Assembly (NCBI GenBank): GCA_037127955.1
Contig: JBAXXI010000001.1
Coordinates: 73,217 to 137,216, forward strand
From: Candidatus Berkelbacteria bacterium
GTDB taxonomy: Bacteria > Patescibacteriota > UBA1384 > UBA12157
DNA: 64,000 bases
Direction: 5' to 3'
A program made the position numbers and the translations under genes. Shown in pieces: positions 10,218 through 64,000 of the stretch (position 1 is the stretch's first letter; each line of letters begins with the position of its first letter). A model generated the notes under the pieces. It was not told the DNA's origin. It did not search any database and saw only the letters and a list, made by a program, of their open reading frames with translations.

Positions 10218-11462
10218 ATGGAAAATAATTTACCAAAAATTCATGATGTCGCCATTATCGGCGGTGGCGCTTCGGGTATGATGGCCGCCATTATCGCTGC
10301 CAGACAAAACAAGTCTGTTATTTTGATAGAAAAAAACGCTGAACTCGGCCGTAAAATTTTAGCCACCGGCAACGGTCGCTGTAATTTAACTAATAAATTT
10401 ATCGAATCTTCTCGTTACCACGGCGGCCACCCAAAATTTATCGAATCAGTTTTAGCACAATTTGATCAATTTGAAACCATGAATTTTTTTGAAAATTTAG
10501 GTTTAATCTTAAAAGAAGAAAACTTAGGCCGGATCTTCCCGCGCTCCGATCAAGCCTCCAGTGTAGTCAACGCGCTTATCCATGAGCTTGAAACAAATCA
10601 CGTGGAAATCATCTTGAATAATCAAGCCCGGAAGATTGAAAAATTAAGCAATATTTTCCATACAACTTTGGCTAATGGCCAAAAAATTATTTCTCATAAA
10701 TTAATTCTCTCAACTGGTGGCCAAGCCGCCGAACATCTCGGCACATCAGGAGATGCTTATTTTTGGTTAAAAAATTTTGGCCACAGCACAACCGATCTTT
10801 ACCCAGCCTTAGCGCCACTTGAGACCAAAGAAACATGGGTCAAAGAGGTTCAAGGATTAAAAATTGAAGCCAAAATCACTGCTACAGTTAATAATGAAAA
10901 AATCTATGAAAAAACCGGCGACGCCTTGTTCACCCATTTTGGAGTCTCTGGCCCAGCAGCCATGGCTCAGGCCGGCGCTATTGGACAATATTTATCTAAC
11001 CAGGAAGTCAAAATTCATTTAGATCTATTCCCCGAAGAACAATTACCAAACTTAAATATTAAATTTATCAAAATTATCGAAACCAGTGGCGCTAAACAGA
11101 TTAAAAATGTTTTAGCTGGCATAATTCCTTCGAATTTATCACCGTTAATATTAGATCAACTCGGCATTAATCCAGATAAAAAAGCCGCTGAAATCAGCAA
11201 AGATGATCGCAAAAAGATTGTTGAAAAAATTAAAAATATCGAATTGACGATTGTCAAAACTAGACCATTCAGAGAAGCCCAAGTCACCCATGGTGGTGCA
11301 ATTTTAGATCAAATTAATCCAAAAACTCTAGAATCAAAAATCGTACCAGGACTATATTTAACCGGCGAACTTTTAGATGTCGACGGCGACTCCGGCGGCT
11401 TTAATCTCCAATGGGCTTGGTCAAGCGGATATTTAGCCGGCCAATCTTGCTCTAAAATATAA
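10218..11462 (+). CDS. NAD(P)/FAD-dependent oxidoreductase, HI0933/BaiN-like flavoprotein family
   Basis: N-terminal GGGASGM Rossmann motif and the TGNGRCNLTN signature of HI0933-like proteins. Confidence 0.8.
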   Translation: MENNLPKIHDVAIIGGGASGMMAAIIAARQNKSVILIEKNAELGRKILATGNGRCNLTNKFIESSRYHGGHPKFIESVLAQFDQFETMNFFENLGLILKEENLGRIFPRSDQASSVVNALIHELETNHVEIILNNQARKIEKLSNIFHTTLANGQKIISHKLILSTGGQAAEHLGTSGDAYFWLKNFGHSTTDLYPALAPLETKETWVKEVQGLKIEAKITATVNNEKIYEKTGDALFTHFGVSGPAAMAQAGAIGQYLSNQEVKIHLDLFPEEQLPNLNIKFIKIIETSGAKQIKNVLAGIIPSNLSPLILDQLGINPDKKAAEISKDDRKKIVEKIKNIELTIVKTRPFREAQVTHGGAILDQINPKTLESKIVPGLYLTGELLDVDGDSGGFNLQWAWSSGYLAGQSCSKI

Positions 11463-28574: not shown

Positions 28575-29327
28575 TTAGTTATCCATTTTTGTTATCAAAT
28601 CTTCCGGTATATCAAAGTTAACATAAATCCCTGTCACATCATCAAGAGAGTCCAGCAGGTCCATCAGGTTCAATAGTTTTTCAGCTACAGCCTTATCTTC
28701 TAGTTTAATAATATCTTTAGCTTCCCAAGAAAAACTAACTTCTTCAGCTTTTATGCCTTGGGCTTCTAGGGCTTTGTGAACTTGGTCGAGCTCAGTCGGT
28801 TTAGTAAAAATAGCCAAACTATCACCTTCTTCGGCGAAATTTTCGCTCCCTGCATCAATCGCAGCTAGCTCTATATCTTCAATGTTTTTATCAACTAGTG
28901 AAACGAGTATTTTTCCAAATTTACCAAACTGGTAACTCACGGCCCCGGCAGAGGCAAATTTGACCCCAAACTTATTTAAAGTATTTTTTACATCTGGTGT
29001 TGTTCGGTTTTTATTATCGGTCGCGGCTTCAATTAAAAGACCTGTACCGTTTGGCCCAATGGCCTCGTACATCACTTCTTCAATCACGGCACCAGCAATT
29101 TCACCCGTACCACGCTTGATGGCGCGCTCAATATTGTCTTTCGGCATCAATCCAGCTTTAGCTTTTTCAATCGCCATTTTCAAAGTAAAATTTGAATCAG
29201 GATTACCGCCACCGTTTTTAGCCGCCACAATAACTGCGTTAGCGAGTCTCGAAAAAGAAGCGCTACGCTTTACATCGCTGGCACCTTTGGCTCGTTTAAT
29301 TTTGGACCATTTTGAATGACCACTCAT
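28575..29327 (-). CDS. yebC: YebC/PmpR family probable transcriptional regulator
   Basis: MSGHSKWSKIKRAKGASDVKRSASFSRL. The conserved yebC-ruvC gene order is present. Confidence 0.9.
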   Translation of the reverse strand: MSGHSKWSKIKRAKGASDVKRSASFSRLANAVIVAAKNGGGNPDSNFTLKMAIEKAKAGLMPKDNIERAIKRGTGEIAGAVIEEVMYEAIGPNGTGLLIEAATDNKNRTTPDVKNTLNKFGVKFASAGAVSYQFGKFGKILVSLVDKNIEDIELAAIDAGSENFAEEGDSLAIFTKPTELDQVHKALEAQGIKAEEVSFSWEAKDIIKLEDKAVAEKLLNLMDLLDSLDDVTGIYVNFDIPEDLITKMDN

Positions 29328-33221: not shown

Positions 33222-33251
33222 AGCCCCGCGTTTTCGCGGGGTTTGTTTTTT
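33222..33251 (+). terminator. rho-independent terminator
   Basis: CCCCGCGttttCGCGGGG followed by TTTGTTTTTT. Confidence 0.7.
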
Positions 33252-33255
33252 ATTA

Positions 33256-33273
33256 TGTAATGTCTACTTTACA
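33256..33273. promoter_or_regulatory. 18-bp inverted repeat TGTAATGTCTACTTTACA upstream of grpE (candidate heat-shock operator)
   Basis: Differs at one position from the reverse complement of the dnaK-upstream element at 35155-35172. Confidence 0.5.
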
Positions 33274-33328
33274 CAAAGCCCAAATTGTTATATATTTGGC
33301 TTATATAAATATTATATTAAGGAAAAAT

Positions 33329-33823
33329 ATGTCCAAGAAAAAAATAGTTGAAGAACAAATAGAAAATCCTAATACAGAAAATGATAAAGTTGCCGAGCTT
33401 GAAGAGGCCTTAAAACGCTCTTTGGCCGATTTTGATAATTACCGCCGCCGCACGGAAGCACAGAAACTGGAAATGATTAATTTTGCTAAAGCCGATTTTG
33501 TCGCCAAAATCACCCCGGTTTTAGATAATTTTAGTCGCGCTTTTACTCATGTCGACATGAACGACCCGGCCATTTCTGGTCTTAAACAAATCGAAAAACA
33601 ACTCGAAGATATATTAGCCCAAGAAGGACTCAAAAGAATTAGTGTTTTAGGCGAATTCAACCCAAATCTGCACGAAGCCATTAGTTACGAAAACAATGCA
33701 GATATCGAAACCGATCATATTATCAGTGAGGCCGAAAGTGGTTGGGAGTTTAACCCCAAAGGGGCCCCAGGGGGCGGCAAAGTCATCAAACCGGCTAAAG
33801 TCAGAGTAAGTAAGGGAAAATAA
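33329..33823 (+). CDS. grpE: nucleotide exchange factor GrpE
   Basis: LADFDNYRRRTEAQKLEMINFAKADF and VLDNFSRAF. Start at MSKKKIV with SD AAGGAAAAAT. Confidence 0.85.
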   Translation: MSKKKIVEEQIENPNTENDKVAELEEALKRSLADFDNYRRRTEAQKLEMINFAKADFVAKITPVLDNFSRAFTHVDMNDPAISGLKQIEKQLEDILAQEGLKRISVLGEFNPNLHEAISYENNADIETDHIISEAESGWEFNPKGAPGGGKVIKPAKVRVSKGK

Positions 33824-33833
33824 GGAGTGTAAA

Positions 33834-34520
33834 ATGAATCGACCAGAAACAACTTTATTTATGCTTGTATCTGTAGACGGTAAAATCTCCACTGGTGACA
33901 ACGATACAATGGATGTTGATAAAGATTATCCAAAAATTGAAGGCGTCAGAGCTGGCTTGCAACAATATTACGATATCGAGCAAACAACTGATTTATATTC
34001 TCTTAACTCAGGACGAGTAATGGCGAAAATGGGTGTTAATGACAAAGAAGATGAACCGAAAAAATCACCAGTTAGCTTTATTGTAATTGACGATTCCCAT
34101 TTGACAGAAAAAGGAGTTCTGTATTTAACAAAAAAATGCCAAAAATTATTTTTGGTAACTGCAAACAAAAATCACCCTGCATTTAATACAGAAGTCGACA
34201 ACTTGGAAATGATTAATTATGAAGATAAAATTGATTTTATTAACTTATTTGAAAAATTAAAAACAAATTATGGCATAGAAAAAATAACTATCCAAACCGG
34301 TGGCACACTTAATTCAATTTTATTAAGAGAGGGCTTAATTGATCATTTGTCGATAGTTATGGCCCCGTGTTTAATAGGTGGGAAGAATACGTCAACCTTA
34401 ATTGATGGTGAATCTTTACACTCGGAAAATGATTTATTAAAAATCAAACCTTTGAAATTAATCGATTGTGAAAAACTTAAAGATTCGTATCTACACTTAA
34501 AATATGATGTTCTAAACTAA
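33834..34520 (+). CDS. RibD C-terminal-domain / DHFR-like reductase family protein
   Basis: LFMLVSVDGKISTGDN and TGGTLNSILLREGLIDHLSIVMAPCLIGG. Confidence 0.65.
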   Translation: MNRPETTLFMLVSVDGKISTGDNDTMDVDKDYPKIEGVRAGLQQYYDIEQTTDLYSLNSGRVMAKMGVNDKEDEPKKSPVSFIVIDDSHLTEKGVLYLTKKCQKLFLVTANKNHPAFNTEVDNLEMINYEDKIDFINLFEKLKTNYGIEKITIQTGGTLNSILLREGLIDHLSIVMAPCLIGGKNTSTLIDGESLHSENDLLKIKPLKLIDCEKLKDSYLHLKYDVLN

Positions 34521-34536
34521 AAATTTCATTTCAAAT

Positions 34537-35076
34537 TTATAATATTTTACTCCAAACAGGTGCATCAGCACCTTGTCCGTAATAATTTTCGGCAATGCCT
34601 ATTCGTTCATAATTTGGGAGCTTGTCATAGAATCCCCAGCCTGTTTCCTTGAATCGTGGGCCACTATTTAGAATAATTTCTGTAAAACCTTGCTTAATAG
34701 CTTCGTTCTCCAGTAAATCAACCAGTGCTCGTCCAATTCCACGTCCGCCTCTTTCGTCAATCCGTACATAAGCATTTATAAGTTCGGCTGGGTTTGAAGT
34801 GCGAGCGAAAGCAATCATTTTTTGGTCAGGATTTTTAAATCCAATCACCCCGACAACTAAACCACCTTCTTCGGCAACAAGATATACACGACTATTACTT
34901 TTATCAATACTCGCTCGCATATTTTGTAGCGTCTCTTCAACCTCGTCCAATAAAGGACTGCTAGTAATTCGATCTTTTATCCATGTTTCAAGAATAGATT
35001 TTATATCAATTAAATCACTCTTTGTTAAAAATCGAATTATTCCGGCGAACTTTTTTGGATTAACTTGAGTAGTCAT
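34537..35076 (-). CDS. GNAT family N-acetyltransferase
   Basis: Acetyl-CoA binding motif RGGRGIGRALV. Confidence 0.75.
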   Translation of the reverse strand: MTTQVNPKKFAGIIRFLTKSDLIDIKSILETWIKDRITSSPLLDEVEETLQNMRASIDKSNSRVYLVAEEGGLVVGVIGFKNPDQKMIAFARTSNPAELINAYVRIDERGGRGIGRALVDLLENEAIKQGFTEIILNSGPRFKETGWGFYDKLPNYERIGIAENYYGQGADAPVWSKIL

Positions 35077-35145
35077 TACTGGCCTCCTTTTACTTATTGA
35101 ATACTTGTATTATATTCCTTGTGTTTTGGATTATCAATTAACTAC

Positions 35146-35174
35146 TTGACAAAATGTAAAGTAGACTTTACATT
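35146..35174 (+). promoter_or_regulatory. dnaK promoter TTGACA-17-TACATT with the 18-bp inverted repeat TGTAAAGTAGACTTTACA (35155-35172) in the spacer/-10 region
   Basis: Seen directly. A repressor-operator-like placement. Confidence 0.5.
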
Positions 35175-35351
35175 ATATTTAGAATGATGTATGATAAAAA
35201 TGTTCAAGTATCAATATTCAATTATCAATTAAATTATAAAATATCAAGTTATAAATATTAAATACTTAAAAAATTACTTACTTGACCATTGATCATTGAT
35301 ATTTGATCATTAAATAATAATATTTCCCCACATGGGGCTAGAGGAGTCTAT

Positions 35352-37235
35352 ATGAGTAAAGTTATTGGTATCGATTTAGGTACTACCAACTCGGTCGTCA
35401 CCGTCGTTGAAGGCGGCAAGGCCAAAGTTATCCCAACTGCCGAGGGCGGCAACATTTGTCCATCAATCGTGGCCACCAGCAAAAATGGTGAAAGATTAGT
35501 TGGTCAATTGGCCAAACGCCAAGGCGTGACCAACCCAGAAAACACGATTTATTCGGTTAAGCGTTTAATCGGCCGTCATTTTGACGATGCCGAAGTTCAA
35601 AAAGACATCAAACTCATGCCTTACAAAATCGTCAAAGCTGGCGAAGGCGTCAAAGTTGTGATGCAAGGTAAAGAGTACACTCCACAGGAAATTTCAGCTT
35701 TCATTTTGGAAAAACTTAAAAAAGATGCTGAAGCTTACTTGGGTGAGAAAGTAACCAAAGCGGTTATTACCGTGCCGGCTTACTTTAACGATTCTCAACG
35801 CCAGGCAACCAAAGACGCTGGTCAAATTGCCGGACTTGAAGTCGAGCGAATTATCAATGAACCAACCGCTTCGGCCTTGGCTTACGGTTTAGATAAAGAA
35901 AAAGAAGGTAAAGTCGCGGTTTACGATTTCGGTGGCGGCACTTTCGATATTACCATTTTGGATATTGGCGACGGCGTGTTTGAAGTTCTTTCAACCGGCG
36001 GCGACACTCACCTTGGTGGTGATGATTTAGATCAAAAATTAATGGACTGGATTGTCGATGATTTCAAAGCCGAAGAAGGTGTTGATATCAAAAAAGATCC
36101 AATGGCCCTTCAGCGCGTTAAAGAAGCGGCTGAAAAAGCTAAAATTGAACTTTCAACTAATATGGAAAGTGAAATCAATTTACCGTTTATTACCGCCGAC
36201 GCTAACGGACCAAAACATTTGGTTAAAAAATTAACTCGCGCCAAACTTGAACAATTGACCGGCGAATTAATTGAAAAAACCGAAGGCATTTGTAAAAAAG
36301 TGGTTGATGAAGCCAAAATCAAAATGACCGATATTAAAGAAGTTATTTTGGTTGGTGGTCAAACTCGCATGCCTTTAATTCAAGAAACTGTCAAAAAGAT
36401 TTTTGGCAAAGCCCCAAGTCAAGAAGTTCACCCAGATGAATGCGTCGCGCTCGGTGCCGGCATTCAAGGTGGAGTTTTAACTGGTGAAGTCAAAGATTTG
36501 TTACTTTTGGATGTCACTCCGCTTAACTTAGGTTTAGAAACTCTAGGCTCAGTCATGACTCCGCTCATTGAGAAAAATACCACTATCCCCGCTTCCAAAT
36601 CTCAAGTTTTCTCAACTGCGGCCGACAACCAAACCTCTGTTGAAATCCATGTTTTACAAGGTGAACGAAGTATGGCTGCCGATAACCGCACCTTGGGTCG
36701 CTTTATTCTTGACGGTATCCCACCAGCGCCTCGCGGTATCCCACAAGTTGAAGTCACTTTTGACATTGATGCTAACGGTATCTTAAACGTTAAAGCGGTT
36801 GATAAAGCTTCTGGTAAAGAACAGAAGATTACTATCACTTCCAGCTCAGGTTTAAGCAAGGAAGAAATTGCCAAAATGCAAGCCGATGCTGAAGCTCACC
36901 GCGAAGAAGATGAAAAGAAAAAAGAAGTGATTGAAGTTAAAAATATTGCTGAAAATCTTTGCTACACCAGTGAAAAAACCTTAAAAGATGCTGGCGATAA
37001 AGTCAAAGAAGAAGATAAAAAATTAGTGGAAGAAAAAATTGCTGCCACTAAAGAAACCTTAAAAGGCGACGATATTGAAGCGATTAAAAAAGCCACTGAA
37101 GAATTGAGTACCGAAATTCAAAAAGTTGGCGCCGCCATGTACGAAGCCACTTCTAAAGAAGAAGCCGATAAAAAACCCGAAGAAGGTGCAGCTTCCGAAG
37201 AACCAAAAACTGAAGAAAAACCAGAAGAGAAATAA
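35352..37235 (+). CDS. dnaK: molecular chaperone DnaK (Hsp70)
   Basis: [20 protein letters not shown], and an Ala/Glu/Lys-rich C-terminal lid. Confidence 0.95.
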
Positions 37236-37327: not shown

Positions 37328-37936
37328 ATGAATAAAGATTACTACAAAATTTTAGGCGTTTCTAAGTCCGCTTCCGCGGACGAAATTAAACGCGCTTACC
37401 GAAAACTAGCTCATCAACACCACCCCGATAAAAACGGTGGTAAAGATGAGAAGTTTAAAGAACTCAACGAAGCCTACCAGGTTTTATCTGACGAGAAAAA
37501 ACGAGCCCAGTACGATCAATTTGGCACGACTGATTTTAGCGGTGCAGGTTTCGGTGGCGGCAATCCATTTGGCGGCCAGTACGGTAATGCTCAGGATTTC
37601 GATTTTTCTGGCTTTGGTTTTGGGGGCGGGATTGGCGATATATTTGAAAGCATGTTTAGCCAAGCCATGAGCCATGTCCAAGCCGAAGTTGAAATTTCCC
37701 TAACTCAGGCCATGCTCGGTGATAAGATTCAACTTAAAACTACCAACAACGATACCATCACTTTAGATATTCCTTCCGGCACGCCTGACGGCGCTTCCTT
37801 CCGCTTCCGCGGTAAAGGCAATCAAACCAAGCATGGCCGCGGCGACCTAACTATCAGCGTCAGAATCCGCATGCCACACCGCCTCACTCGCGAACAACGC
37901 GAACTCTTCGAGCAATTGAAACGTACCGGACTCTAA
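37328..37936 (+). CDS. dnaJ: J-domain co-chaperone (DnaJ-like; J domain and Gly/Phe-rich region, no Cys-rich zinc-finger domain)
   Basis: [32 protein letters not shown] (HPD motif) and [10 protein letters not shown]. Only 202 aa. Confidence 0.8.
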
Positions 37937-37946
37937 AATACAAAAA

Positions 37947-37975
37947 ATACCAGGCCAAAACCTGGTATTTTTTTA
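37947..37975 (+). terminator. rho-independent terminator after dnaJ
   Basis: ATACCAGGccaaaaCCTGGTAT followed by TTTTTTTATTTT. Confidence 0.7.
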
Positions 37976-51961: not shown

Positions 51962-53749
51962 CTATTTAAAGAATTTTTCAAATTCAACACTTTCGATAGT
52001 TTCTTTTTTAATCAAAACTTCAGTTATTTTTTTCAATAAAGATTTATTCTTAACCAAAACTTGCTCGGCTTTTTTTTGAGCATCTTTAATAATTCTCATG
52101 ACCTCTTCGTCAATCTGAAAAGCTTTAGCATCAGAAAAAGTTTTATGTCCACCAAGTTCACGACCCAAGAAAACTGCTTCTTCACGTTCGCCTAAAACAA
52201 CTGGACCGATTTTCTCTGACATCCCGTAAACCATAACCATATCACGCGCAATCTTGGTTGCTCGCTGCAAATCATTTGAAGCACCAGTAGTCACTTGACC
52301 AAAAATCAATTTTTCCGCAACCCAACCACCCAAAAGTTGGGCGATTTCGTCTTCAAATTTAGCTTGAGAATACAACCTTCTATCTTCCTCTGGCAAACTC
52401 CAAGTATAACCAAGAGCATTACCACGAGAAATCACCGAAATTTTATGAATCGGGTCGCAATCAACCAAAACTTTTCCGACAATAGCGTGACCAACTTCAT
52501 GATAACCAGAAATCTCTTTTTCGCTAACCGATAAGACTCTGGATTTTCGTTCAGGCCCAATAATAACTTTTTCGATTGCCGCACCAATTTGAGCTTGATG
52601 AATTTTTTTCAAATTTTCACGAGCTGCAAAAATAGCAGCTTCGTTCATCACGTTTTTCAAGTCAGCCCCAGAAAGTCCAGCAGTCTGACGAGCAATTTTT
52701 TCAAAATCAACCGAAGCGTCCATCGGCTTGTTGCGAGCATGAATTTTTAATATTTCAGTTCGTTCAGCGATATCAGGTAAATCAATGATCACTCTTCGGT
52801 CAAAACGCCCTGGTCTAAGTAAAGCTGGGTCCAAAACATCAGGTCTATTAGTGGCAGCCATCACGATCACACGAGTTTCATTTTCAAAACCATCCATTTC
52901 TACCAAAATTTGGTTTAAAGTTTGCTCACGTTCATCATGCGAACCACCCAAACCGGTACCACGTTGGCGACCAATTGCATCAAGTTCATCAATAAATAAA
53001 ATAGCTGGTGAATTTCGCTTGGCCTTGGCGAACAAATCGCGCACTCTGGCCGCACCCACGCCGACAAACATTTCCACAAATTCAGATGCAGAGATCGAAA
53101 AAAATGGTACTCCAGCTTCACCGGCCACGGCCCGCGCCAATAAAGTTTTACCGGTTCCCGGAGGACCAATCAGCAAAACGCCTTTTGGAATTTCCGCGCC
53201 TAAATTCTTAAACTTAGCCGGGCTTTTTAAAAATTCAACCACTTCATAAAGTTCCTGCTTAGATTCAGCCATCCCGGCTACGTCAGCAAAAGTGGTTTTC
53301 TTACCGCCAGGATTAAATAATTTAGCCTTAGATTGACCAAAACTCATGGCTTTATTATTGCCGCCCTGAGCCTGTCGAAGCATAAAGAATAAAAATCCAC
53401 CAATTAATAAAAATGGCAGTAAAATACTTAAAATCGTCGACCAATTCGAACTACTACTTGGGTTTTGCACCGTGATACTAACTTTATCCGGCGTAATCCC
53501 ATAATCATTTAACGAAGAACTAGACTCTTTGTAAGCCTGCAATTTTTGATTATCCTTAAGGGTTGCCGTCACCTGATTATCAGAAATAGAAATCTGGGCT
53601 ACATTGCCAGATTTGACTTGATCAACAATTTGAGAGATCGTAGTTGATTTTGGTTTACTGATTGGATTTGAAGAAAAAAGGCTCCAGCCGACGAGAGCAA
53701 TGATTATAAATACAATTATATAGAAAGCATTTTTTGATGTTTTATTCAT
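51962..53749 (-). CDS. ftsH: ATP-dependent zinc metalloprotease FtsH
   Basis: Walker [12 protein letters not shown] motif and HEVGHA zinc site. N-terminal TM pair. Confidence 0.95.
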
Positions 53750-58037: not shown

Positions 58038-61000
58038 TTAATTTATCTTTTTCATCTTGATATTGACTGAAACCAAGGTCTTTTCCTTCTCAAGATACAT
58101 AATATGAGACTTGAAATCAGTATATTCTGGTTTGGTGGCAGTCAAGTAATAAATACCAGGATTAACCAAGAACTTAAACCGACCATCGATATCAGTTACA
58201 TCTGTTTCGACTAATCTATTTGTACGTTTTTCGTAAATTCTCACGATCGTAGTCTCAAGTGGTCGACCAAAAATATCAGTAACAACACCATATGGTCTGG
58301 CTCGTTTGGTTCTTAAATATTCCCAAATCGCAATCAAAATATAAAATATTAAGGAGAAAATATAGAAAATATTAATCGAAATAATCATCAAAACAATGGC
58401 AAACATTATACCTAGAACCAACAAGACGATTCTAACAGTATTTAAAATTCGGTTAAGCTTGATGGTAAAGACTAACAATTTATAACTAAAAGATAATTTA
58501 GTTTGAGCATCCATTGGCACATTAATAGTGACCGTTTTATCCTTACTATCAATCTCTAAGACTTCACCAGTATAAACCGAATCGAAGAAACCACTAACTT
58601 TCATAACTGACGGGAAAGTATAACCATTTTTTTGAACTGTTAAATAGTATTTGCCTGTTCTGACCAAGAAGCCAAATCTACCTTCACCATCGGAAACCGC
58701 AGTTTCAAGTAAACGATTATATTCTTTATCAAAAATCTTAATCAAAGCATAAGGAATGGCTTGACCGGTTTGTGAATTAAAGACCGTACCCCATGGCTTT
58801 CGTCGTTTACGAATGCCCAAAAATTGGAACAAATGACTCAAAAGATAAAGAAGTTGTGGCCAAATATTGGCAGTCGCTAAAACAGCGTTTAGAACAATTG
58901 GTGCGGCCAATAAAGAACTGGTTGTAACAATAACAGCGTTGGAAACACTCTTAGCTTCTGGAGTTAAACCTTCGGTACTAATATTAGCAAACAAACTATT
59001 AATCTGATCTTGGGTTTTTTGCAAAGTACTAGTAACACCATTGCCAATAACTTTGATCTGTACATTTTGTTGAATCTGCCCGTCAGTCACAGTTAGCTTC
59101 TGGTCACCCACAGTATTTAGAGTAAAATCTGAGCCGTCGAACGAGTGTGTACCAGTATCAGACGCACTAAAGGTGTACTTATGATCACTATTCCAAATTA
59201 ATTCGGCTTTTTTATCAGAAGATGTAAAGTAAATTTCGCCTAGATAAGATTGAATTCTGGCGCCACCATTGTCAACCGCGCTCACTTTAACCTTATCGTT
59301 AAAAGTCTGACCAGCATTAATTTTATCTGGAGTATTATCAAGTACAAGATAAGCTTGAACCGCTAAGGCATCGCCTTTTTTGGTTGAAACATTCAAAATA
59401 CTAGATTTCAAAGAAGTATTACCGGCTGCGTCATAAGCTTTAATATAGAAATTATAAACAGTTTCTGGAGTCAATTGAGTCAAATCAAAATCAGTATTTG
59501 AAGTTGTACCGATCATGACATCAGTATCGGCATTGAATATTTTATAACCGGTTACACCGACATTATCGGTCGAAGCATCCCAGGCCAAACTAATCTCAGT
59601 CGATTTGATAACGGTAGCTCGAAGATTGGTCGGCGCAGTTGGCCCTTCATTATCCGTAACGTTCGTCGGCGTCAAAGCTAATTGTTCGGTTCCACTGGAG
59701 ATATGACCAAGTGAATCAATCGCTTTTAAGGTATAATAATAAGTCACGCCATTGGTCAAATTGGAATCAGTATAAGATGTTCCGGTTTGACCCGTAGCTA
59801 ATTTTACCCCTTGAACTGTTTTTTCAAGTGAACGATAAATGTCGATCGATTTGAAATATGTTGACGAAGGATTGGTCCAAGTCAATTCGACCTGACCATT
59901 ACCAGCTACTCCAGAAAAGTTAATCGGATTATCAATTGAGGCTGGGTAAGTTCCAAATGTCACTTCAATAGTGTGATTGGCCGTAATTGAGCTAAAGGTA
60001 TAAGTTTCAAGATCATATTTTGAAACGCCATCAACCTGAACATTCCTAATAAAGTAACCAGAATTGGCACTAATCGTAAAGGTTTTATTTGAAAGCGCAT
60101 CCACTATTATCGAACCACTTGGTGTAATACTACCTCCGTTACCTGACGAAGCAGTAATAGTATAAGTCGTAACAGCAATGGTCGCAGCGATCGTGTGATC
60201 AGTAGTGACATTGCTAAAAGTATAAGTAGCCAAAGCCCCAACCGAGACACCATCAATCTTCAAGTCTTCAATATAATAACCGGCATCAGGAGTGATAGTG
60301 TAGATCTGGCTCGAACCATCATCAACCAAAGTCGAACCAGATGGCGAGACTGTACCGTGGGCATTAATCGTGGCCGTAATGGTATGGCTTGTTCCAGTAG
60401 GAGTAACCGGATTTGCGCTAAAACTAGCCGAAATTGTATGATTCGTGGTTACAGTGGTAAAGGTATAATTACTGACCGAACCAACTGAAACACTATCAAC
60501 CAAAACATCTTCAATATGATAACCAGATGAAGGCAAAATCGTATAAGCCTGGTTTGAACCATAATTAACTGTTGTCGCACCGTCCGGATCAATCGAACCA
60601 TGCGAACCAGCTAAAGCCGTTATTGTTTTTGTATCAACTATAAATGTTGCTGAAATAGTATGAGAAGTAGTAACGTTGTTAAAAGTATAAGTTGTCACAG
60701 AACCGACCGAGACACCGTCAACTAATACATCCAAAACGTGGAAATTATCATTGGCCGTAATAGTGTAGGCTCGATTTGAACCATAATTAATCGCCGTAAC
60801 ACCGGTTGGTGAAATCGAACCATTAGTGCCAGCCGAAGCTGTAATATTATTAGTATCGATGGCGAAAGTCGCAGACACTGTTAAATTAGAGGTAATATTT
60901 GAATCGGTACGAGCTTCCGTTAAAACTCCATCAGACCAAGAAACAAAATGATAATGAGCACTTGGCACGGCCGTAACCTGAGAACCGTTACCTCCATAAT

Positions 61001-64000
61001 TAACGGTTTGTGGGGTGGTACCCGTGATCGAACCGTTTGAACCAGCATTATAGGTCAGAGTGTAAGTATTGATCGCAAAAGTCGCCGTTACAGTGATATT
61101 ATCTGTTACATTAAGGTCTGTTCTGGCTGCCGTCATCACATTATCCGACCATTTAACAAAATGATAATTGGCTGCCGGTACAGCTGTCACTTGAGCACCA
61201 TTTGAACCATAACCAACGGTTTGAGAGGTTGTACCAGTGATTGAGCCGTTTGAACCAGCATTATAGGTCAGGGTGTAAGTGTTGATGGCAAAATCAGCAG
61301 TGACGGTGATATCGGTAGTAATATTTAAATCGGTTCGAGCGGCTGTCATCACGTTGTCAGACCACTTAACGAAGTGATAATTCGTATCAGGTATAGCTAC
61401 AACTTGCGTACCATCCCCACCAACATAAACTGTCTGGGAAGCATTGCCAGAAATAGTACCATGTGAACCAGCTGTATAAGATAAAGTGTATTGATTTTCG
61501 GCAGCAAAATTAGCCGTGACTGTAATATTACCTGTCACATTTAGATCAGTTCTGGCCGCCGTCAAAACACCATCAGACCAAGTAGTAAAATGATAATTCA
61601 AATTTGGTACAGCTGTAACTTGTGTGCCGTTTGCACCATAATTGACGGTTTGTGGGGTAATACCTGTAATCGAACCATTCGCACCAGCTGAGTAAGTTAA
61701 GGTATAAGTATTAACAGCAAAAGTGGCGGTCACAGTTATGTCAGCTGTAATATCTAAATCAGTACGAGCGGCGGTCATGACATCGTCTGACCATTTAACA
61801 AAATGATAATTTGTATTTGGCGTAGCAATAACTTCACTACCGTTTGCACCATAACCAACAGTTTGAGGAGTTATGCCGACAATCGTACCGTTAGAATCAT
61901 GATTGTAAGTTAAGGTGTAAGTATTAATAGCGAAGGTCGCGGTGACTGTAATATCATTTGACACACTAGAATCAGTACGAGCCGCCGTCATCACATTATC
62001 TGACCACTTAACAAAATGGTAATTAGAATCTGGAACAGCCGTAACCTGAGAACCACTACCTCCGTAATTGACAGTCTGAGGAGTAGTACCAGTAATTGAA
62101 CCATGCGAACCAGCCGAGTAAGTTAAGGTATAAGAATTTATAGCAAATGTAGCACTAACTGTTAAATCAGAAGTAATGTTTTGATCAATACGGGCCGCGG
62201 TCATCACGTCGTCTGACCATTTAACAAAATGATAGTTGTCATCAGGAACAGCCAGGACTTGGCCACCGTTAGCACCATAATTGACGGTTTGAGGTGTTAC
62301 ACCAGACACAGAACCATGAGAACCAGCATTGTAAGTTAGAGTGTAAGTATCAATGGCAAAGGTCGCCGTTACGGTTACATCAGCCGTGATATTCGAATCA
62401 GTACGAGCAGCCGTTAAAACGCCATCAGACCAAGAAACAAAATGATAGTGAGCACTTGGCACGGCCGTAACCTGAGAACCGTTACCTCCATAATTGACGG
62501 TTTGTGGGGTAATACCTGTAATCGAACCATTCGCACCAGCAGAATAAGTCAAAGTATAAGTATCAATGGCAAAAGTGGCGGTGACCGAAATATTAGCTGT
62601 GATGTTTGAATCTGTTCTAGCCGCCGTCATGACATCGTCCGACCATTTAACAAAATGGTAATTGGCCGCCGGAACCGCTGTTACCTGCGTACCGCTAGCA
62701 CCATAATTGACAGTTTGTGGGGTAGTACCAGTGATCGAACCGTTTGCACCAGCAGAGTAAGTCAAAGTGTAAGTATCGATGGCAAAGGTTGCAGTGACTG
62801 TAATATTATCCGTCACATTCAAATCAGTACGAGCTGCCGTCATGATGTCGTCTGACCATTTGACAAAATGATAATGAGCGCTCGGTACGGCTGTAACTTG
62901 AGTACCATTTGCGCCATAATTAATGGTTTGAGGATTGGTACCAGTAACCGAGCCATTGCCATCGTTGTTATAAGTCAAAGTATAAGTATTAATCGCGAAA
63001 GTCGCCGTTACCGTAATATTAGCTGTAACGTTAAGATCAGTACGAGCCGCCGTTAAGACATTATCAGACCAAGAAACAAAATGATAATGAGCCGACGGAA
63101 CCGCTGTCACCTGTGTACCATTTGCGCCATAATTAATGGTTTGAGGATTGGTACCAGTAACCGAGCCATTGCCATCGTTGTTATAAGTCAAAGTATAAGT
63201 ATTAATCGCGAAAGTCGCCGTTACCGTAATATTAGCTGTAACGTTAAGATCAGTACGAGCCGCCGTTAAGACATTATCAGACCAAGAAACAAAATGATAA
63301 TGAGCCGACGGAACCGCTGTCACCTGTGTACTATTTGCGCCATAATTAATTGTTTGCGGCGTAGTGCCCGTAATTGAACCATTTGAACCGGCATTATAGG
63401 TTAAAGTGTATGTATCGATGGCAAATGTCGCCGTTACCGTAATATCAGCTGTAATATTTGAATCGGTACGAGCGGCTGTCAGTACGCCATCAGACCAGGA
63501 AACAAAATGATAATGAGAGTTTGGCACGGCGGTTACTTGAGTACCGTTTGTACCATAATCAACAGTCTGAGGGGTGGTACCAGTAATTGAACCATTTAAG
63601 CTAGCATTATAAGTCAAAGTGTAGGTATTAATCGCAAAGGTCGCAGTGACAGTCAAATTAGCTGTGATATTTTGATCAATACGGGCCGCCGTCATCACGT
63701 CGTCTGACCACTTAACAAAGTGGTAATTGGCGTCTGGCACAGCTAAAACTTGGCCACCATTAGCACCATAATTGACGGTTTGAGGTGTTACACCAGAGAC
63801 CGAACCATGAGAACCAGCATTGTAAGTTAGAGTATAAGTGTCGATCGCAAAAGTAGCCGTTACCGTAATATTGGCCGTAACATTAAGATCAGTACGAGCG
63901 GCAGTCATGACATCGTCTGACCATTTAACAAAATGGTAATGAGAGTTTGGTACGGCGGTGACTTGCGTACCGTTTGCGCCATAATCAACAGTCTGAGGGG
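58038..64000 (-). CDS. giant cell-surface protein (over 1956 aa; 5' end beyond window). At least 14 tandem 71-aa Listeria/Bacteroides-type repeats (TYTLTY...YHFVSWSD...), then divergent Ig-like repeats, two FN3 domains, two carboxypeptidase-regulatory-like domains and C-terminal TM segments
   Basis: Repeat consensus TYTLTYNAGSNGSITGTTPQTVNYGANGTQVTAVPSAHYHFVSWSDGVLTAARTDLNVTANITVTATFAIN. The FN3 hallmark is LTWTNP...YYYTLKAID. The reading frame continues open to the window end. Confidence 0.8.
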   Translation of the reverse strand, partial: PQTVDYGANGTQVTAVPNSHYHFVKWSDDVMTAARTDLNVTANITVTATFAIDTYTLTYNAGSHGSVSGVTPQTVNYGANGGQVLAVPDANYHFVKWSDDVMTAARIDQNITANLTVTATFAINTYTLTYNASLNGSITGTTPQTVDYGTNGTQVTAVPNSHYHFVSWSDGVLTAARTDSNITADITVTATFAIDTYTLTYNAGSNGSITGTTPQTINYGANSTQVTAVPSAHYHFVSWSDNVLTAARTDLNVTANITVTATFAINTYTLTYNNDGNGSVTGTNPQTINYGANGTQVTAVPSAHYHFVSWSDNVLTAARTDLNVTANITVTATFAINTYTLTYNNDGNGSVTGTNPQTINYGANGTQVTAVPSAHYHFVKWSDDIMTAARTDLNVTDNITVTATFAIDTYTLTYSAGANGSITGTTPQTVNYGASGTQVTAVPAANYHFVKWSDDVMTAARTDSNITANISVTATFAIDTYTLTYSAGANGSITGITPQTVNYGGNGSQVTAVPSAHYHFVSWSDGVLTAARTDSNITADVTVTATFAIDTYTLTYNAGSHGSVSGVTPQTVNYGANGGQVLAVPDDNYHFVKWSDDVMTAARIDQNITSDLTVSATFAINSYTLTYSAGSHGSITGTTPQTVNYGGSGSQVTAVPDSNYHFVKWSDNVMTAARTDSSVSNDITVTATFAINTYTLTYNHDSNGTIVGITPQTVGYGANGSEVIATPNTNYHFVKWSDDVMTAARTDLDITADITVTATFAVNTYTLTYSAGANGSITGITPQTVNYGANGTQVTAVPNLNYHFTTWSDGVLTAARTDLNVTGNITVTANFAAENQYTLSYTAGSHGTISGNASQTVYVGGDGTQVVAIPDTNYHFVKWSDNVMTAARTDLNITTDITVTADFAINTYTLTYNAGSNGSITGTTSQTVGYGSNGAQVTAVPAANYHFVKWSDNVMTAARTDLNVTDNITVTATFAINTYTLTYNAGSNGSITGTTPQTVNYGGNGSQVTAVPSAHYHFVSWSDGVLTEARTDSNITSNLTVSATFAIDTNNITASAGTNGSISPTGVTAINYGSNRAYTITANDNFHVLDVLVDGVSVGSVTTYTFNNVTTSHTISATFIVDTKTITALAGSHGSIDPDGATTVNYGSNQAYTILPSSGYHIEDVLVDSVSVGSVSNYTFTTVTTNHTISASFSANPVTPTGTSHTITATINAHGTVSPSGSTLVDDGSSQIYTITPDAGYYIEDLKIDGVSVGALATYTFSNVTTDHTIAATIAVTTYTITASSGNGGSITPSGSIIVDALSNKTFTISANSGYFIRNVQVDGVSKYDLETYTFSSITANHTIEVTFGTYPASIDNPINFSGVAGNGQVELTWTNPSSTYFKSIDIYRSLEKTVQGVKLATGQTGTSYTDSNLTNGVTYYYTLKAIDSLGHISSGTEQLALTPTNVTDNEGPTAPTNLRATVIKSTEISLAWDASTDNVGVTGYKIFNADTDVMIGTTSNTDFDLTQLTPETVYNFYIKAYDAAGNTSLKSSILNVSTKKGDALAVQAYLVLDNTPDKINAGQTFNDKVKVSAVDNGGARIQSYLGEIYFTSSDKKAELIWNSDHKYTFSASDTGTHSFDGSDFTLNTVGDQKLTVTDGQIQQNVQIKVIGNGVTSTLQKTQDQINSLFANISTEGLTPEAKSVSNAVIVTTSSLLAAPIVLNAVLATANIWPQLLYLLSHLFQFLGIRKRRKPWGTVFNSQTGQAIPYALIKIFDKEYNRLLETAVSDGEGRFGFLVRTGKYYLTVQKNGYTFPSVMKVSGFFDSVYTGEVLEIDSKDKTVTINVPMDAQTKLSFSYKLLVFTIKLNRILNTVRIVLLVLGIMFAIVLMIISINIFYIFSLIFYILIAIWEYLRTKRARPYGVVTDIFGRPLETTIVRIYEKRTNRLVETDVTDIDGRFKFLVNPGIYYLTATKPEYTDFKSHIMYLEKEKTLVSVNIKMKKIN
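60650..64000 (-). repeat. tandem 213-bp coding repeats inside the giant surface protein gene (some adjacent units identical, e.g. about 62940-63366)
   Basis: Identical translated mini-ORFs in the six-frame track at 62868 and 63081 (offset 213 bp), and a visibly periodic DNA sequence. Confidence 0.8.

What the first reader, a model, noticed from the sequence alone, without database searches (positions are those of the whole stretch)
33256..35172. Shared 18-bp inverted repeat upstream of grpE and dnaK: candidate heat-shock operator distinct from CIRCE and HAIR
TGTAATGTCTACTTTACA lies at 33256-33273, upstream of grpE. TGTAAAGTAGACTTTACA lies at 35155-35172, in the spacer and -10 region of the TTGACA-17-TACATT dnaK promoter. 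One is the reverse complement of the other except at a single base. This defines an inverted repeat TGTAAAG-N4-CTTTACA. The CIRCE consensus is TTAGCACTC-N9-GAGTGCTAA and the HAIR consensus is CTTGAGT-N7-ACTCAAG; neither occurs in the window. No hrcA or hspR gene is present in the window. The chaperone operon is also atypical. A RibD-C-like reductase and an opposite-strand GNAT gene lie between grpE and dnaK. The dnaJ is a 202-aa J-domain protein with no zinc finger.
Basis: partly seen in the sequence, partly recalled or inferred. Interest (0 to 1): 0.6.

Follow-up and report, generated by a model that had tools for sequence, protein, structure and literature searches.

The report
Chaperone-gene operator of an HTH–sHSP repressor
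The shared palindrome upstream of grpE and dnaK is a real, widely conserved operator of a chaperone-gene regulon in Candidate Phyla Radiation bacteria, and its probable regulator is an undescribed repressor made of a CylR2-like DNA-binding domain fused to a small heat-shock protein.

Summary
The two sites are as described and extend to a 20-bp palindrome, ATGTAAAGT-NN-ACTTTACAT. One overlaps the dnaK core promoter and the other overlaps the grpE -35 hexamer.

The organism is a Candidatus Berkelbacteria bacterium (CPR). The dnaK site is kept in all seven Berkelbacteria sampled (GrpE identity down to 54%), while the flanks diverge and the site moves relative to the -35 hexamer.

I scanned metagenomes for '-35 hexamer plus palindrome'. 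The scan returned 111 non-redundant promoters:
- 29 dnaK, 3 grpE, 7 groES(-groEL), 1 clp ATPase, 1 DUF3467.
- 35 full-length copies of a gene encoding an XRE-type HTH fused to a complete Hsp20/alpha-crystallin module, plus several copies cut by contig ends.

This fusion family has at least 85 clusters, annotated only as 'Hsp20'. It carries the palindrome in its own promoter. Its HTH is closest to CylR2, a solved palindrome-binding repressor whose own promoter has a 7/8-identical half-site.

CIRCE, HAIR and CtsR boxes are absent.

Best explanation: an autoregulated HTH-sHSP repressor controls the chaperone regulon and probably senses unfolded protein through its sHSP module. That sensing step is inferred.

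Main gap: the regulator gene is not in this window, and I could not show it in this genome.

The parts
33222..33243 (+). Intrinsic-terminator-like hairpin that ends the upstream unit, directly before the grpE operator
   Evidence: 9-bp stem with 7 GC pairs, followed by a T run.
33255..33274 (.). grpE operator ATGTAATGTCTACTTTACAC. It has 2 deviations from the 20-bp consensus, and its right arm supplies the -35 hexamer
   Evidence: The identical site is in the closest relative, L004. grpE promoters with perfect sites occur in metagenomes (L144, L145, L148).
33268..33296 (+). Predicted grpE promoter, TTTACA-17-TATATT
   Evidence: 10 of 12 matches.
33329..33823 (+). grpE (164 aa)
   Evidence: PF01025; 100% identical to an NCBI GrpE from a Candidatus Berkelbacteria MAG, accession MEI6039842.1.
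33834..34520 (+). RibD_C-like reductase gene 10 bp after grpE, probably co-transcribed and so under the grpE operator
   Evidence: PF01872. No terminator is predicted between the two genes. Co-transcription is inferred.
34537..35076 (-). GNAT acetyltransferase gene on the opposite strand. It is lineage-variable filler between grpE and dnaK and not part of the regulon
   Evidence: Relatives have other genes or none in this position.
35146..35174 (+). dnaK promoter, TTGACA-17-TACATT
   Evidence: The same arrangement is in L004, L005, L008 and L009 and in all promoters recovered.
35154..35173 (.). dnaK operator ATGTAAAGTAGACTTTACAT, a perfect 9+2+9 palindrome that fills the spacer and overlaps the -10 hexamer
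   Evidence: Conserved in seven Berkelbacteria.
35181..35351 (+). Long AT-rich dnaK leader of about 170 nt with an ATCAAT/ATTGAT hairpin. Its role is unknown
   Evidence: MFE -28.8 kcal/mol, z = -1.0 against shuffles, so not significant. No Rfam family matches.
35352..37235 (+). dnaK (627 aa)
   Evidence: PF00012.
37328..37936 (+). Short dnaJ (202 aa: J domain, G/F region, one DnaJ_C domain; no zinc finger). It has no operator of its own here and is probably read from the dnaK promoter
   Evidence: A terminator-like hairpin at 37942-37973 follows it. In other lineages dnaJ has its own palindrome.

Best explanation
The palindrome ATGTAAAGT-NN-ACTTTACAT is the operator of a dimeric CylR2-like (XRE-family) helix-turn-helix repressor. 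In Berkelbacteria and other CPR lineages this HTH is fused, through a flexible linker, to a complete small heat-shock protein: an N-terminal arm, an alpha-crystallin domain and a C-terminal I/V-x-I/V tail.

The operator lies inside sigma-70-type core promoters, either between -35 and -10, over the -10, or over the -35. A bound dimer would therefore block RNA polymerase. The regulon comprises dnaK, grpE, dnaJ, groES-groEL, a clp ATPase gene, DUF3467 and the regulator's own gene. In this window it controls the dnaK-dnaJ unit and the grpE-ribD_C unit.

Proposed signal (inferred): under heat or other proteotoxic stress the sHSP module binds unfolding proteins or changes its oligomeric state. The repressor is then drawn off the DNA and the regulon is derepressed. 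Once DnaK and Clp clear the clients, the repressor is released and rebinds.

The regulator gene probably also makes a free sHSP from a conserved internal ribosome-binding site and ATG. This free sHSP could co-assemble with the repressor.

What is shown: the operator, its conservation, its position in promoters, the regulon's gene content, the fusion family, the palindrome in the fusion gene's own promoter, and the kinship of the HTH with CylR2.

What is inferred: that the fusion protein binds this operator, that it represses, the sensing mechanism, and that this particular genome encodes the protein.

My confidence by step:
- About 0.9 that it is a transcription-factor operator of a chaperone regulon.
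- About 0.75 that the HTH-sHSP fusion is the factor in this lineage.
- About 0.6 that it is the factor in this genome.
- About 0.45 for sequestration by unfolded clients as the signal.
For: 1. Conservation. The site is kept in the dnaK promoter of seven Berkelbacteria while the flanks diverge. It occupies two different registers relative to TTGACA: 3 nt after it, or 10-11 nt after it with the palindrome centre serving as the -10 TATACT.

2. Excess over chance. About 9 are expected for uniform base composition (my own calculation). 32 of the loci carry CPR names.

3. Association with XRE genes. In the genome scan the largest family downstream of the site is a 26-member set of small XRE HTH proteins, typically 15-30 bp from the site.

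4. The fusion. L088 (Berkelbacteria Licking1014_7) encodes HTH_3 (residues 9-62, E 3e-11) plus HSP20 (130-231, E 5e-23) in one 233-aa ORF, with the palindrome in its own TTGACA-17-TAAACT promoter. L083 (Saccharibacteria), L130, L136 and L258 show the same arrangement. There are 85 clusters with both Pfam domains, and about 70 of the top 150 representatives at 50% identity are full length.

5. Regulon. The composite '-35 plus operator' scan of metagenomes gave 111 unique promoters:
   - 35 full-length fusion genes, plus 11 XRE genes (some fusions cut by a contig end or degenerate, some small XREs)
   - 29 dnaK, 3 grpE, 7 groES (with groEL downstream where seen), 1 clp ATPase, 1 DUF3467
   - 13 small membrane-protein modules, 7 with no room before the contig end, 4 unclassified
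. dnaJ has a second operator of its own on five contigs. In L251 the fusion gene and a clp gene form one operon behind one palindrome.

6. Kinship with a characterised repressor. The HTH is closest to CylR2 (E 6e-11, about 50% identity, shared VSRQTI...EK...PSL). CylR2 is a homodimeric repressor that binds its promoter (PMC3709268; preprint 10.64898/2026.09.04.749385). The cytolysin promoter region contains TTTTGTCAAGTG-T-CACTTGACAAAA. Its half-site TGTCAAGT matches TGTAAAGT at 7 of 8 positions. TGTCAAG is also the variant half-site in the L007 dnaK operator.

7. Structure. The AlphaFold2 model has a confident HTH (pLDDT 85-93), a disordered linker (67-84) and a confident alpha-crystallin sandwich.

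8. No rival operator. CIRCE, HAIR and CtsR boxes are not found in the window. CIRCE is absent from 860 kb of related loci.

9. Precedent for an sHSP as a sensor of aggregation. E. coli IbpA is reported to self-regulate its own expression and to control sigma-32 translation (PMC10410725; bioRxiv 10.1101/2020.04.20.050740).
Against: - The regulator gene is not in the window (tblastn). I could not show it in this genome: no fusion protein has an NCBI accession near the window's GrpE, MEI6039842.1.
- No fusion protein from the 929-kb contig behind L007 was recovered either.
- The same palindrome also precedes small stand-alone XRE genes and their membrane-protein, thioredoxin-like or DsbD-like neighbours, including in CPR. 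Operator specificity is therefore shared among paralogues, and a different paralogue could be the factor here.
- There is no binding, expression or temperature-shift evidence.
- The arms of the cytolysin-promoter palindrome are 1 bp further apart than in this operator.
- The free inner positions 9 and 12 show no covariation beyond base frequencies.
The tallies are samples, not censuses. The composite pattern also favours one of the two promoter geometries.
Confidence: 0.7

Rival explanations
1. The palindrome is a real operator of the chaperone regulon. In this genome, however, it is bound by a small stand-alone CylR2-like XRE protein, possibly signalling through a membrane partner as CylR1/CylR2 do. 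On this view the HTH-sHSP fusion is only a co-regulated target or a paralogue.
For: The same palindrome precedes many small 65-80-aa XRE genes, including in CPR MAGs (L018, L047, L049, L053, L076, L096, L108, L116, L121). 13 of 111 composite promoters drive small membrane-protein modules, most with an XRE gene downstream. The fusion gene was not found in the window or linked to its MAG.
Against: Where such small XRE genes were seen, their neighbours and targets were membrane proteins, thioredoxin-like proteins or DsbD-like proteins, never chaperone genes. The chaperone promoters share the exact '-35 + AAA + palindrome' layout with the fusion-gene promoters. In L251 a fusion gene is physically in one operon with a clp gene. 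The fusion is documented in named Berkelbacteria: Licking1014_7, CG2_30_39_44 and MBI3495664.1.
Confidence: 0.17
2. The palindrome is bound by the HTH-sHSP protein, but the protein acts as a stress-dependent activator or anti-repressor rather than as a repressor.
For: At least one CylR2-like regulator, GakR, is reported as a positive regulator although its site overlaps a promoter (preprint 10.64898/2026.09.04.749385). The window's grpE site lies over and upstream of the -35, a position activators can also use.
Against: In most promoters the site fills the -35/-10 spacer or covers the -10 of a promoter with near-consensus hexamers (TTGACA with TACATT, TACAAT or TATACT). Such promoters should be strong without help, and a protein bound there should occlude them. 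CylR2 itself is a repressor (PMC3709268).
Confidence: 0.07
3. The element is not a protein operator. It is either a promoter module read by an alternative (heat-shock) sigma factor or an RNA-level hairpin such as a thermometer or attenuator.
For: It always lies at promoters of stress genes, and as a palindrome it could fold if transcribed.
Against: It sits between or over ordinary sigma-70-type hexamers and occupies at least three registers relative to them. A sigma-recognition element could not do that. It is symmetric, as dimer-binding sites are. In the common geometry the -10 overlaps its right arm, so most of it lies upstream of the transcription start. In many fusion genes the start codon is only 8 nt after it, which leaves no room for a 5' hairpin. 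No Rfam family matches.
Confidence: 0.03
4. The two sites are a chance resemblance, or remnants of a mobile or repetitive element with no regulatory role.
For: The genome is AT-rich and the motif is AT-rich. An extended version of the same palindrome is repeated many times in some high-GC Pseudomonadota genomes.
Against: Shuffles give 0.36 expected matches against 3 observed. The site is conserved at orthologous promoters across deep divergence. 111 unique promoters with the composite signature are concentrated on chaperone genes and XRE genes.
Confidence: 0.01

Closest known systems
CylR2 (with CylR1), the cytolysin repressor of Enterococcus faecalis (PDB 1UTX; DNA complexes 2XIU and 2XJ3)
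   Same: The regulator's HTH is CylR2-like (E 6e-11, about 50% identity, same recognition-helix residues). CylR2 is a homodimeric repressor binding its promoter (PMC3709268). The cytolysin promoter's palindrome has the half-site TGTCAAGT, against TGTAAAGT here. Small CylR2-like genes with a membrane-protein partner carry this very palindrome in many phyla.
   Different: CylR2 has 66 aa and no sensor domain, and it is thought to receive its signal through the membrane protein CylR1. It controls a toxin operon, not chaperones. Here the HTH is covalently joined to an sHSP. The palindrome arms are 1 bp closer together. The targets are dnaK, grpE, dnaJ, groESL and clp.
HspR with the HAIR operator (MerR family; DnaK as corepressor)
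   Same: It is a repressor of the dnaK operon that binds an inverted repeat at the promoter. It is autoregulated, and a chaperone feeds back on its activity (established knowledge; PMC6102357 and PMC7464140 appeared).
   Different: The DNA-binding family differs (MerR, not XRE). The operator differs (CTTGAGT-N7-ACTCAAG, absent here). The chaperone partner is a separate protein rather than a fused domain. hspR normally lies inside the dnaK operon, and no such gene is present here.
HrcA with the CIRCE operator (GroEL-modulated repressor)
   Same: Negative control of groESL and dnaK through a palindromic operator at sigma-70-type promoters, with chaperone feedback (established knowledge; PMC6843607 appeared).
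   Different: CIRCE (TTAGCACTC-N9-GAGTGCTAA) is absent from the window and from 860 kb of related loci. No HrcA domain was found in the window. The protein family is unrelated.
E. coli IbpA as an aggregation sensor
   Same: An sHSP reported as an aggregation sensor that self-regulates its own expression and controls sigma-32 translation (PMC10410725; bioRxiv 10.1101/2020.04.20.050740). This is the logic proposed here for the sHSP module.
   Different: IbpA acts on translation and has no DNA-binding domain. Here an HTH domain would make the sHSP a transcription factor.
TyrR box of Gammaproteobacteria (TGTAAA-N6-TTTACA; consensus recalled from memory)
   Same: The core of the palindrome fits that consensus letter for letter. 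Some of the SAR86 and Gammaproteobacteria hits may be TyrR-type sites.
   Different: TyrR is a large sigma-54-activator-like protein of Proteobacteria that controls aromatic amino-acid genes. Nothing of that kind is in the window. The conserved positions here extend beyond the TyrR core (ATGTAAAGT, not TGTAAA), and the targets are chaperone genes. The resemblance is taken as coincidental.

Membership tests
HrcA/CIRCE regulon | CIRCE inverted repeat TTAGCACTC-N9-GAGTGCTAA at the dnaK or groE promoters | tested here: not met
   No match with up to 3 mismatches in the window or in 860 kb of 131 related loci, including groES-groEL promoters.
HrcA/CIRCE regulon | An hrcA gene (Pfam HrcA_DNA-bdg / HrcA), commonly first in the grpE-dnaK operon | tested here: not met
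   No such domain in the window ORFs that were scanned. comEC, not hrcA, lies upstream of grpE in all relatives. The rest of the genome could not be tested.
HspR/HAIR regulon | HAIR inverted repeat CTTGAGT-N7-ACTCAAG | tested here: not met
   No match with up to 2 mismatches in the window. One isolated 2-mismatch match in 860 kb of related loci.
HspR/HAIR regulon | A MerR-type hspR gene in or next to the dnaK operon | tested here: not met
   The dnaK-dnaJ unit is followed by a TM2-domain gene. There is no MerR domain in the window.
CtsR regulon | Tandem heptad direct repeat RGTCAAANANRGTCAAA at the promoters | tested here: not met
   One 2-mismatch match at 10838, against 1.16 expected by chance. 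It is not near the chaperone genes.
CylR2-like XRE repressors | An HTH_3 domain with CylR2-type recognition-helix residues (the proposed regulator is encoded outside the window) | tested here: met
   Pfam HTH_3 E 3e-11. CylR2 is the best solved match, E 6e-11, with aligned VSRQTI...EK...PSL. These residues are invariant across 20 fusion proteins.
CylR2-like XRE repressors | A palindromic operator at the promoter with a TGT(A/C)AAGT half-site | tested here: met
   The cytolysin promoter region has TTGTCAAGTG-T-CACTTGACAA. The operator here is TGTAAAGT-NN-ACTTTACA, and the variant TGTCAAG occurs in L007. The spacing differs by 1 bp. That CylR2 binds that particular repeat is taken from the literature (PMC3709268) and my recollection of its reference 68, which the library does not hold.
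CylR2-like XRE repressors | A small single-domain protein paired with a small membrane protein (CylR1) | tested here: not met
   The proposed regulator is 190-265 aa with an Hsp20 module and no membrane partner. Paralogous modules with a membrane partner exist and share the operator.
CylR2-like XRE repressors | Specific binding of the protein to the operator, with repression | not testable with these tools
   Needs EMSA or footprinting and reporter assays.
Small heat-shock proteins (Hsp20/alpha-crystallin) | An alpha-crystallin domain | tested here: met
   Pfam HSP20 E 5e-23 over 101 of 102 profile positions. Solved sHSPs match at E 2e-14. The model has a beta-sandwich at 128-217 with pLDDT about 85.
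Small heat-shock proteins (Hsp20/alpha-crystallin) | A flanking N-terminal arm and a C-terminal I/V-x-I/V anchoring motif used for oligomerisation | tested here: met
   Alignment A1 shows a conserved arm SPFRGLGDLHREIDRFF and a tail K-[IV]-K-[VP]. That these mediate oligomerisation here is inferred.
Small heat-shock proteins (Hsp20/alpha-crystallin) | ATP-independent holdase activity towards unfolding proteins | not testable with these tools
   Needs aggregation-suppression assays.
TyrR regulon | A TyrR protein (ACT-PAS-AAA+-HTH) and aromatic amino-acid target genes | tested here: not met
   No such protein in the window. The targets are chaperone genes. Only the DNA consensus fits, and that consensus is recalled from memory.

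The most novel reading that the evidence does not exclude
Large parts of the Candidate Phyla Radiation run their chaperone response with a transcription factor whose sensor is a small heat-shock protein fused to it. A single autoregulated, often leaderless gene yields two products: the HTH-sHSP repressor and, from a conserved internal ribosome-binding site, the free sHSP. Unfolded-protein load is read directly, because the repressor is drawn into sHSP-client assemblies and leaves the DNA. DnaK and Clp, themselves products of the regulon, return it. This would be a heat-shock control circuit of a new design, replacing HrcA, HspR or sigma-32 in these reduced genomes. It would also be the first case of a chaperone domain built into a DNA-binding regulator.
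Probability: 0.4. Interest if true: 0.9.

Novelty: new variant of a known kind. Interest (0 to 1): 0.8.

Why it matters
How CPR/Patescibacteria regulate anything is almost unknown. They make up a large share of bacterial diversity, have tiny genomes, and most cannot be grown alone. This work yields a concrete, testable regulon for them: an operator, a set of target genes and a candidate regulator.

The regulator's architecture, a CylR2-type HTH covalently joined to a full sHSP, suggests a very direct way of coupling protein-folding stress to transcription. It is related in logic to HspR-DnaK, HrcA-GroEL and IbpA, but it would be achieved within one polypeptide.

There are two practical consequences:
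- At least 85 protein clusters now labelled 'Hsp20 family protein' are probably transcription factors. Some are truncated in annotation to the sHSP half (L258).
- The operator is a compact, strongly conserved part that could be used for heterologous tests in E. coli, so the proposed mechanism can be examined without culturing a CPR organism.

Tried and rejected
- RNA structure in the dnaK leader. The fold of 35180-35365 is no better than shuffles (z = -1.0), and Rfam finds only tRNAs in the window. I dropped it as an explanation.
- Covariation at the free inner positions 9 and 12 of the palindrome. Observed complementarity was 56 of 120 against 55.6 expected from base frequencies. I make no claim.
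- Linking the regulator to the window's own MAG through NCBI accession proximity. The window's GrpE is MEI6039842.1, and the fusion proteins with accessions belong to other MAGs. This failed.
- tblastn of 20 fusion proteins and a small XRE against the window. Nothing was significant; the best E-value was 0.02. L007-L009 were included. L004-L006 were left out by a file-name slip, but the later tblastn covered them and found no fusion gene next to their chaperone genes.
- First internal-start script. Its filter was too strict and it picked the wrong methionine. One search replaces it.
- P0128 as a possible 'split' version, with the sHSP separate from the HTH. It is a mis-annotated continuous fusion ORF.
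- CIRCE, HAIR and CtsR boxes: not found.
- Searching the cytolysin locus with this operator's exact spacing gave no hit. The similarity to the CylR2 site shows only once the 1-bp spacing difference is allowed.
- Literature. Seven full-text searches for an HTH-sHSP regulator, CPR heat-shock regulation or the motif itself found nothing relevant. The library lacks most subscription journals, so this is not proof of novelty. The primary CylR2 paper (PMC517608) is not held.
- The small winged-HTH gene divergent from dnaK in L007. It is ArsR/MarR-like, not XRE, is absent from the other loci, and was not pursued.


Full report
**1. The observation**

One is the reverse complement of the other except for one base. 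The repeat finder extends the match to 23 nt at 91%. With the flanking A and T, the dnaK site is a perfect 20-bp palindrome, ATGTAAAGT-AG-ACTTTACAT (35154-35173).

The window holds 3 matches to the 14-base core at up to 2 mismatches, against 0.36 expected from shuffles. The third match (28975) is weak and lies inside the yebC ORF. Loosening the search adds nothing.

The promoter scan finds TTGACA-17-TACATT at 35146-35174, so the palindrome fills the dnaK spacer and overlaps the -10. At grpE a terminator (33222-33243) is followed by the palindrome. Its right arm TTTACA lies 17 bp from TATATT (33268-33296), so the site covers the -35.

CIRCE and HAIR are absent, and the one CtsR-box-like match is at chance level. 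None of the annotated window ORFs has an HrcA, MerR/HspR or CtsR domain.

**2. Organism and conservation**

The window's GrpE is 100% identical to an NCBI protein from a Candidatus Berkelbacteria MAG, a member of the CPR/Patescibacteria.

I fetched the grpE-dnaK loci of six relatives with GrpE identity from 79% down to 54%. All have the palindrome in the dnaK promoter while the surrounding intergenic sequence diverges. The flanking A and T are invariant.

Two registers occur:
- In the window, L004, L005, L008 and L009, the palindrome starts 3 nt after TTGACA and the -10 (TACATT) overlaps its right arm.
- In L006 and L007, it starts 10-11 nt after TTGACA and its centre GTATAC supplies the -10 (TATACT).

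An element that keeps its sequence while sliding relative to the promoter hexamers is a binding site in its own right, not part of the sigma-factor recognition sequence. The grpE copy is shared only with the closest relative, L004. Other lineages also place the element at grpE (section 4).

**3. What the element is associated with genome-wide**

I scanned 185,579 species-representative genomes for ATGTAAAGTNNACTTTACAT. About 9 matches are expected for uniform base composition (my own calculation). 32 of the loci are named as CPR lineages: Paceibacteria, Saccharibacteria, Nomurabacteria, Yanofskybacteria and Berkelbacteria.

I clustered the ORFs immediately downstream of each hit and ran Pfam on representatives. 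The recurrent families are:
- 26 XRE-type HTH proteins, mostly 65-80 aa and typically 15-30 bp from the site.
- Their small membrane-protein neighbours in Firmicutes and Bacteroidota.
- Thioredoxin-like and DsbD-like proteins in Paceibacteria and Saccharibacteria, which have an adjacent small XRE gene with its own site.
- DnaK (L035 Saccharibacteria, L060).

A palindrome that sits in front of members of one HTH subfamily across several phyla is most simply that subfamily's own autoregulatory operator.

**4. The candidate regulator and the regulon**

Two of the XRE hits were long. L088 (Berkelbacteria Licking1014_7) encodes a 233-aa protein with HTH_3 at 9-62 (E 3e-11) and HSP20/alpha-crystallin at 130-231 (E 5e-23). 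The palindrome lies in its own TTGACA-17-TAAACT promoter. L083 (Saccharibacteria) has the same architecture.

Database searches give 85 clusters (90% identity) with both domains, 190-265 aa long. Where they are named at all, they are called only 'Hsp20 family protein'. About 70 of the top 150 representatives at 50% identity are full length.

The alignment shows an invariant GVSRQ...E.G..PS recognition region, a variable linker, and then a complete sHSP: N-terminal arm, alpha-crystallin domain and C-terminal K-[IV]-K-[VP] tail. An AlphaFold2 model has two confident domains joined by a disordered linker, with pTM 0.39.

Every fusion locus I fetched has the palindrome in its promoter, in the same layout as the dnaK promoters: cTTGACAaaATGTAAAGT....

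I then used the single metagenome scan on that composite signature, TTGACAAAATGTAAAGNNNNCTTTACA (23 specified bases). Well under one match is expected by chance for any plausible collection size (my own calculation). The 111 non-redundant promoters drive the following genes:

| Downstream gene | Promoters |
|---|---|
| Full-length fusion gene | 35 |
| XRE gene (some fusions cut by a contig end or degenerate, some small XREs) | 11 |
| dnaK | 29 |
| grpE | 3 |
| groES (groEL following where the contig allows) | 7 |
| Clp_N-AAA-AAA_2-ClpB_D2 ATPase | 1 |
| DUF3467 | 1 |
| Small 'DERD' membrane-protein modules | 13 |
| No room before the contig end | 7 |
| Unclassified | 4 |

dnaJ has its own second operator on five contigs. 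In L251 a fusion gene and a clp gene form one operon behind a single palindrome. CIRCE is absent (up to 3 mismatches) from 860 kb of these loci.

By gene content this is a chaperone (heat-shock-type) regulon. It includes its presumptive regulator.

**5. Link to a characterised protein**

The HTH half is closest among solved structures to CylR2 of Enterococcus faecalis (E 6e-11, about 50% identity, identical VSRQTI and PSL positions). CylR2 is a 66-aa homodimeric repressor that binds the cytolysin promoter and works with the membrane protein CylR1 (PMC3709268; preprint 10.64898/2026.09.04.749385).

In a real cytolysin locus (L259), the promoter region just upstream of cylR1 contains a near-perfect 25-bp palindrome, TTTTGTCAAGTG-T-CACTTGACAAAA. 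Its half-site TGTCAAGT differs from TGTAAAGT at one position, and the arms are 1 bp further apart.

TGTCAAG is also the variant half-site in the L007 dnaK operator and in many secondary sites next to Firmicutes XRE genes. The small 'XRE plus membrane protein' modules that share the palindrome are therefore CylR1/CylR2-like systems. The CPR protein is a member of the same HTH subfamily in which an sHSP takes the place of the membrane partner.

**6. Mechanism**

Shown: operator position, conservation, regulon content, the palindrome in the fusion gene's own promoter, and family kinship.

Inferred, step by step:
- (a) The fusion protein binds the palindrome as a dimer. XRE proteins do so, and the alpha-crystallin domain is a dimerising fold.
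- (b) It represses, because the site occludes near-consensus sigma-70-type hexamers, as CylR2 does.
- (c) The sHSP module is the sensor. On proteotoxic stress it engages unfolding clients or re-equilibrates its oligomers, so the repressor leaves the DNA. DnaK and Clp, themselves products of the regulon, later free it.

The logic resembles HspR-DnaK and HrcA-GroEL, and most closely E. coli IbpA. IbpA is an sHSP reported as an aggregation sensor that self-regulates its own expression and controls sigma-32 translation (PMC10410725; bioRxiv 10.1101/2020.04.20.050740).

One unexpected detail fits this picture. Of 32 distinct fusion ORFs, 30 have an in-frame ATG exactly at the start of the sHSP module. 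In 26 of these an AGGAGG-type Shine-Dalgarno sequence lies 5-10 nt upstream, against a background of 15%. The first ATG is often only 8 nt after the palindrome, which looks leaderless.

The gene therefore probably yields both the repressor and a free sHSP, and these could co-assemble. An annotation pipeline chose the internal start in Berkelbacteria CG2_30_39_44 and so lost the HTH.

**7. Weaknesses**

- The regulator gene is not in the window, and I could not show that this genome has it. This is the main gap.
- The operator is shared with stand-alone CylR2-like paralogues, some in CPR genomes. A different paralogue could serve here, or the systems could cross-talk.
- There are no expression or binding data, so 'heat shock' rests on gene content.
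- Both collection scans were exact-match and truncated, so the tallies are samples.
- The held literature contains nothing on such a regulator, but the library is incomplete.

**8. Verdict**

The element is the operator of a chaperone regulon that is widespread in CPR bacteria. Its most likely regulator is a CylR2-like HTH fused to a small heat-shock protein. That architecture has apparently not been described as a regulator.

I rate it a new variant of a known kind: chaperone-linked heat-shock repressor-operator systems. Interest is high because it is surprising to a specialist and directly testable in vitro and in E. coli.

Noticed in passing
L088 1681-1697; L258 9984-10003; 26 of 30 fusion genes in L130-L256: The fusion genes carry a conserved in-frame AGGAGG-type Shine-Dalgarno sequence plus ATG exactly at the start of the sHSP module (26 of 30, background 15%). 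The first ATG is often only 8 nt after the palindrome, which looks leaderless. This suggests two products from one gene: the HTH-sHSP and a free sHSP.
   Followed up: yes
L258 9758-10444 (Berkelbacteria CG2_30_39_44, MNXR01000044.1): The deposited annotation calls only a 147-aa 'hypothetical protein' (OIP04831.1) starting at the internal ATG. The ORF is a continuous 228-aa HTH-Hsp20 fusion with the palindrome in its promoter, so the family is under-annotated.
   Followed up: yes
L028, L030, L053, L076, L096, L105, L108, L116, L121, L129 (Paceibacteria, Saccharibacteria and related MAGs): The same palindrome precedes Met-rich, membrane-anchored thioredoxin-like proteins and DsbD-thioredoxin fusion proteins. 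A small stand-alone XRE gene with its own site lies next to them. This looks like a second, redox- or metal-related regulon that uses the same operator.
   Followed up: partly
L010, L014, L023, L024, L026, L031, L045, L065, L081, L086, L091, L100, L120, L128 (Polaromonas and other roughly 60% GC Pseudomonadota MAGs): A longer AT-rich palindrome, CAAAATGTAAAGTCGACTTTACATTTTG, occurs many times per genome with unrelated flanks. It is not obviously tied to XRE genes and its nature is unknown (a regulon of another factor, or a repeat element).
   Followed up: partly
window 37328-37936: DnaJ has only 202 aa, with a J domain, a G/F region and one DnaJ_C domain. It has no zinc finger and no cysteine at all. 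The same 202-aa form is in L005, L006 and L008 (209 aa in L007), so it is a lineage trait and not a truncation.
   Followed up: partly
window 35181-35351; L004 5150-5310: The dnaK leader is about 170 nt long, very AT-rich, and built of ATCAAT/ATTGAT-type repeats that form a long hairpin. The L004 leader has analogous CCAAT/ATTGG repeats. The fold is no better than shuffles (z = -1.0) and no Rfam family matches.
   Followed up: partly
L130 6001-7423; L136 5081-6987; L258 10001-11180: In Berkelbacteria the fusion gene lies next to smpB. In L136 it lies directly downstream of what looks like the 3' end of a tmRNA gene, so the regulator neighbours the trans-translation genes.
   Followed up: no
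L138, L174, L208, L225, L226: In other lineages dnaJ has its own perfect palindrome 40-90 bp upstream, in addition to the one at dnaK. The window has none between dnaK and dnaJ.
   Followed up: partly
L007 12832-12849 and 12374-12628: This Berkelbacterium's dnaK operator has one CylR2-type half-site (TGTCAAGT). A small ArsR/MarR-like winged-HTH gene is transcribed divergently from dnaK. No fusion gene from this 929-kb contig was recovered.
   Followed up: no
window 28975-28992: A weak third match, TTTAAAGTATTTTTTACA, lies inside the yebC (TACO1 family) ORF. It is probably chance.
   Followed up: partly
L034, L063 (SAR86), L033, L082, L127: In SAR86 genomes the palindrome lies just upstream of an F420H2-dependent quinone-reductase-like gene or an ABC ATPase gene. 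These may be TyrR-type boxes (TGTAAA-N6-TTTACA; consensus recalled from memory) rather than XRE operators.
   Followed up: no
window 51962-53749 and 58038-63908: The window also encodes FtsH, which has no palindrome upstream, and a 1956-aa ORF near its end. Twelve tRNA genes are scattered through the window.
   Followed up: no
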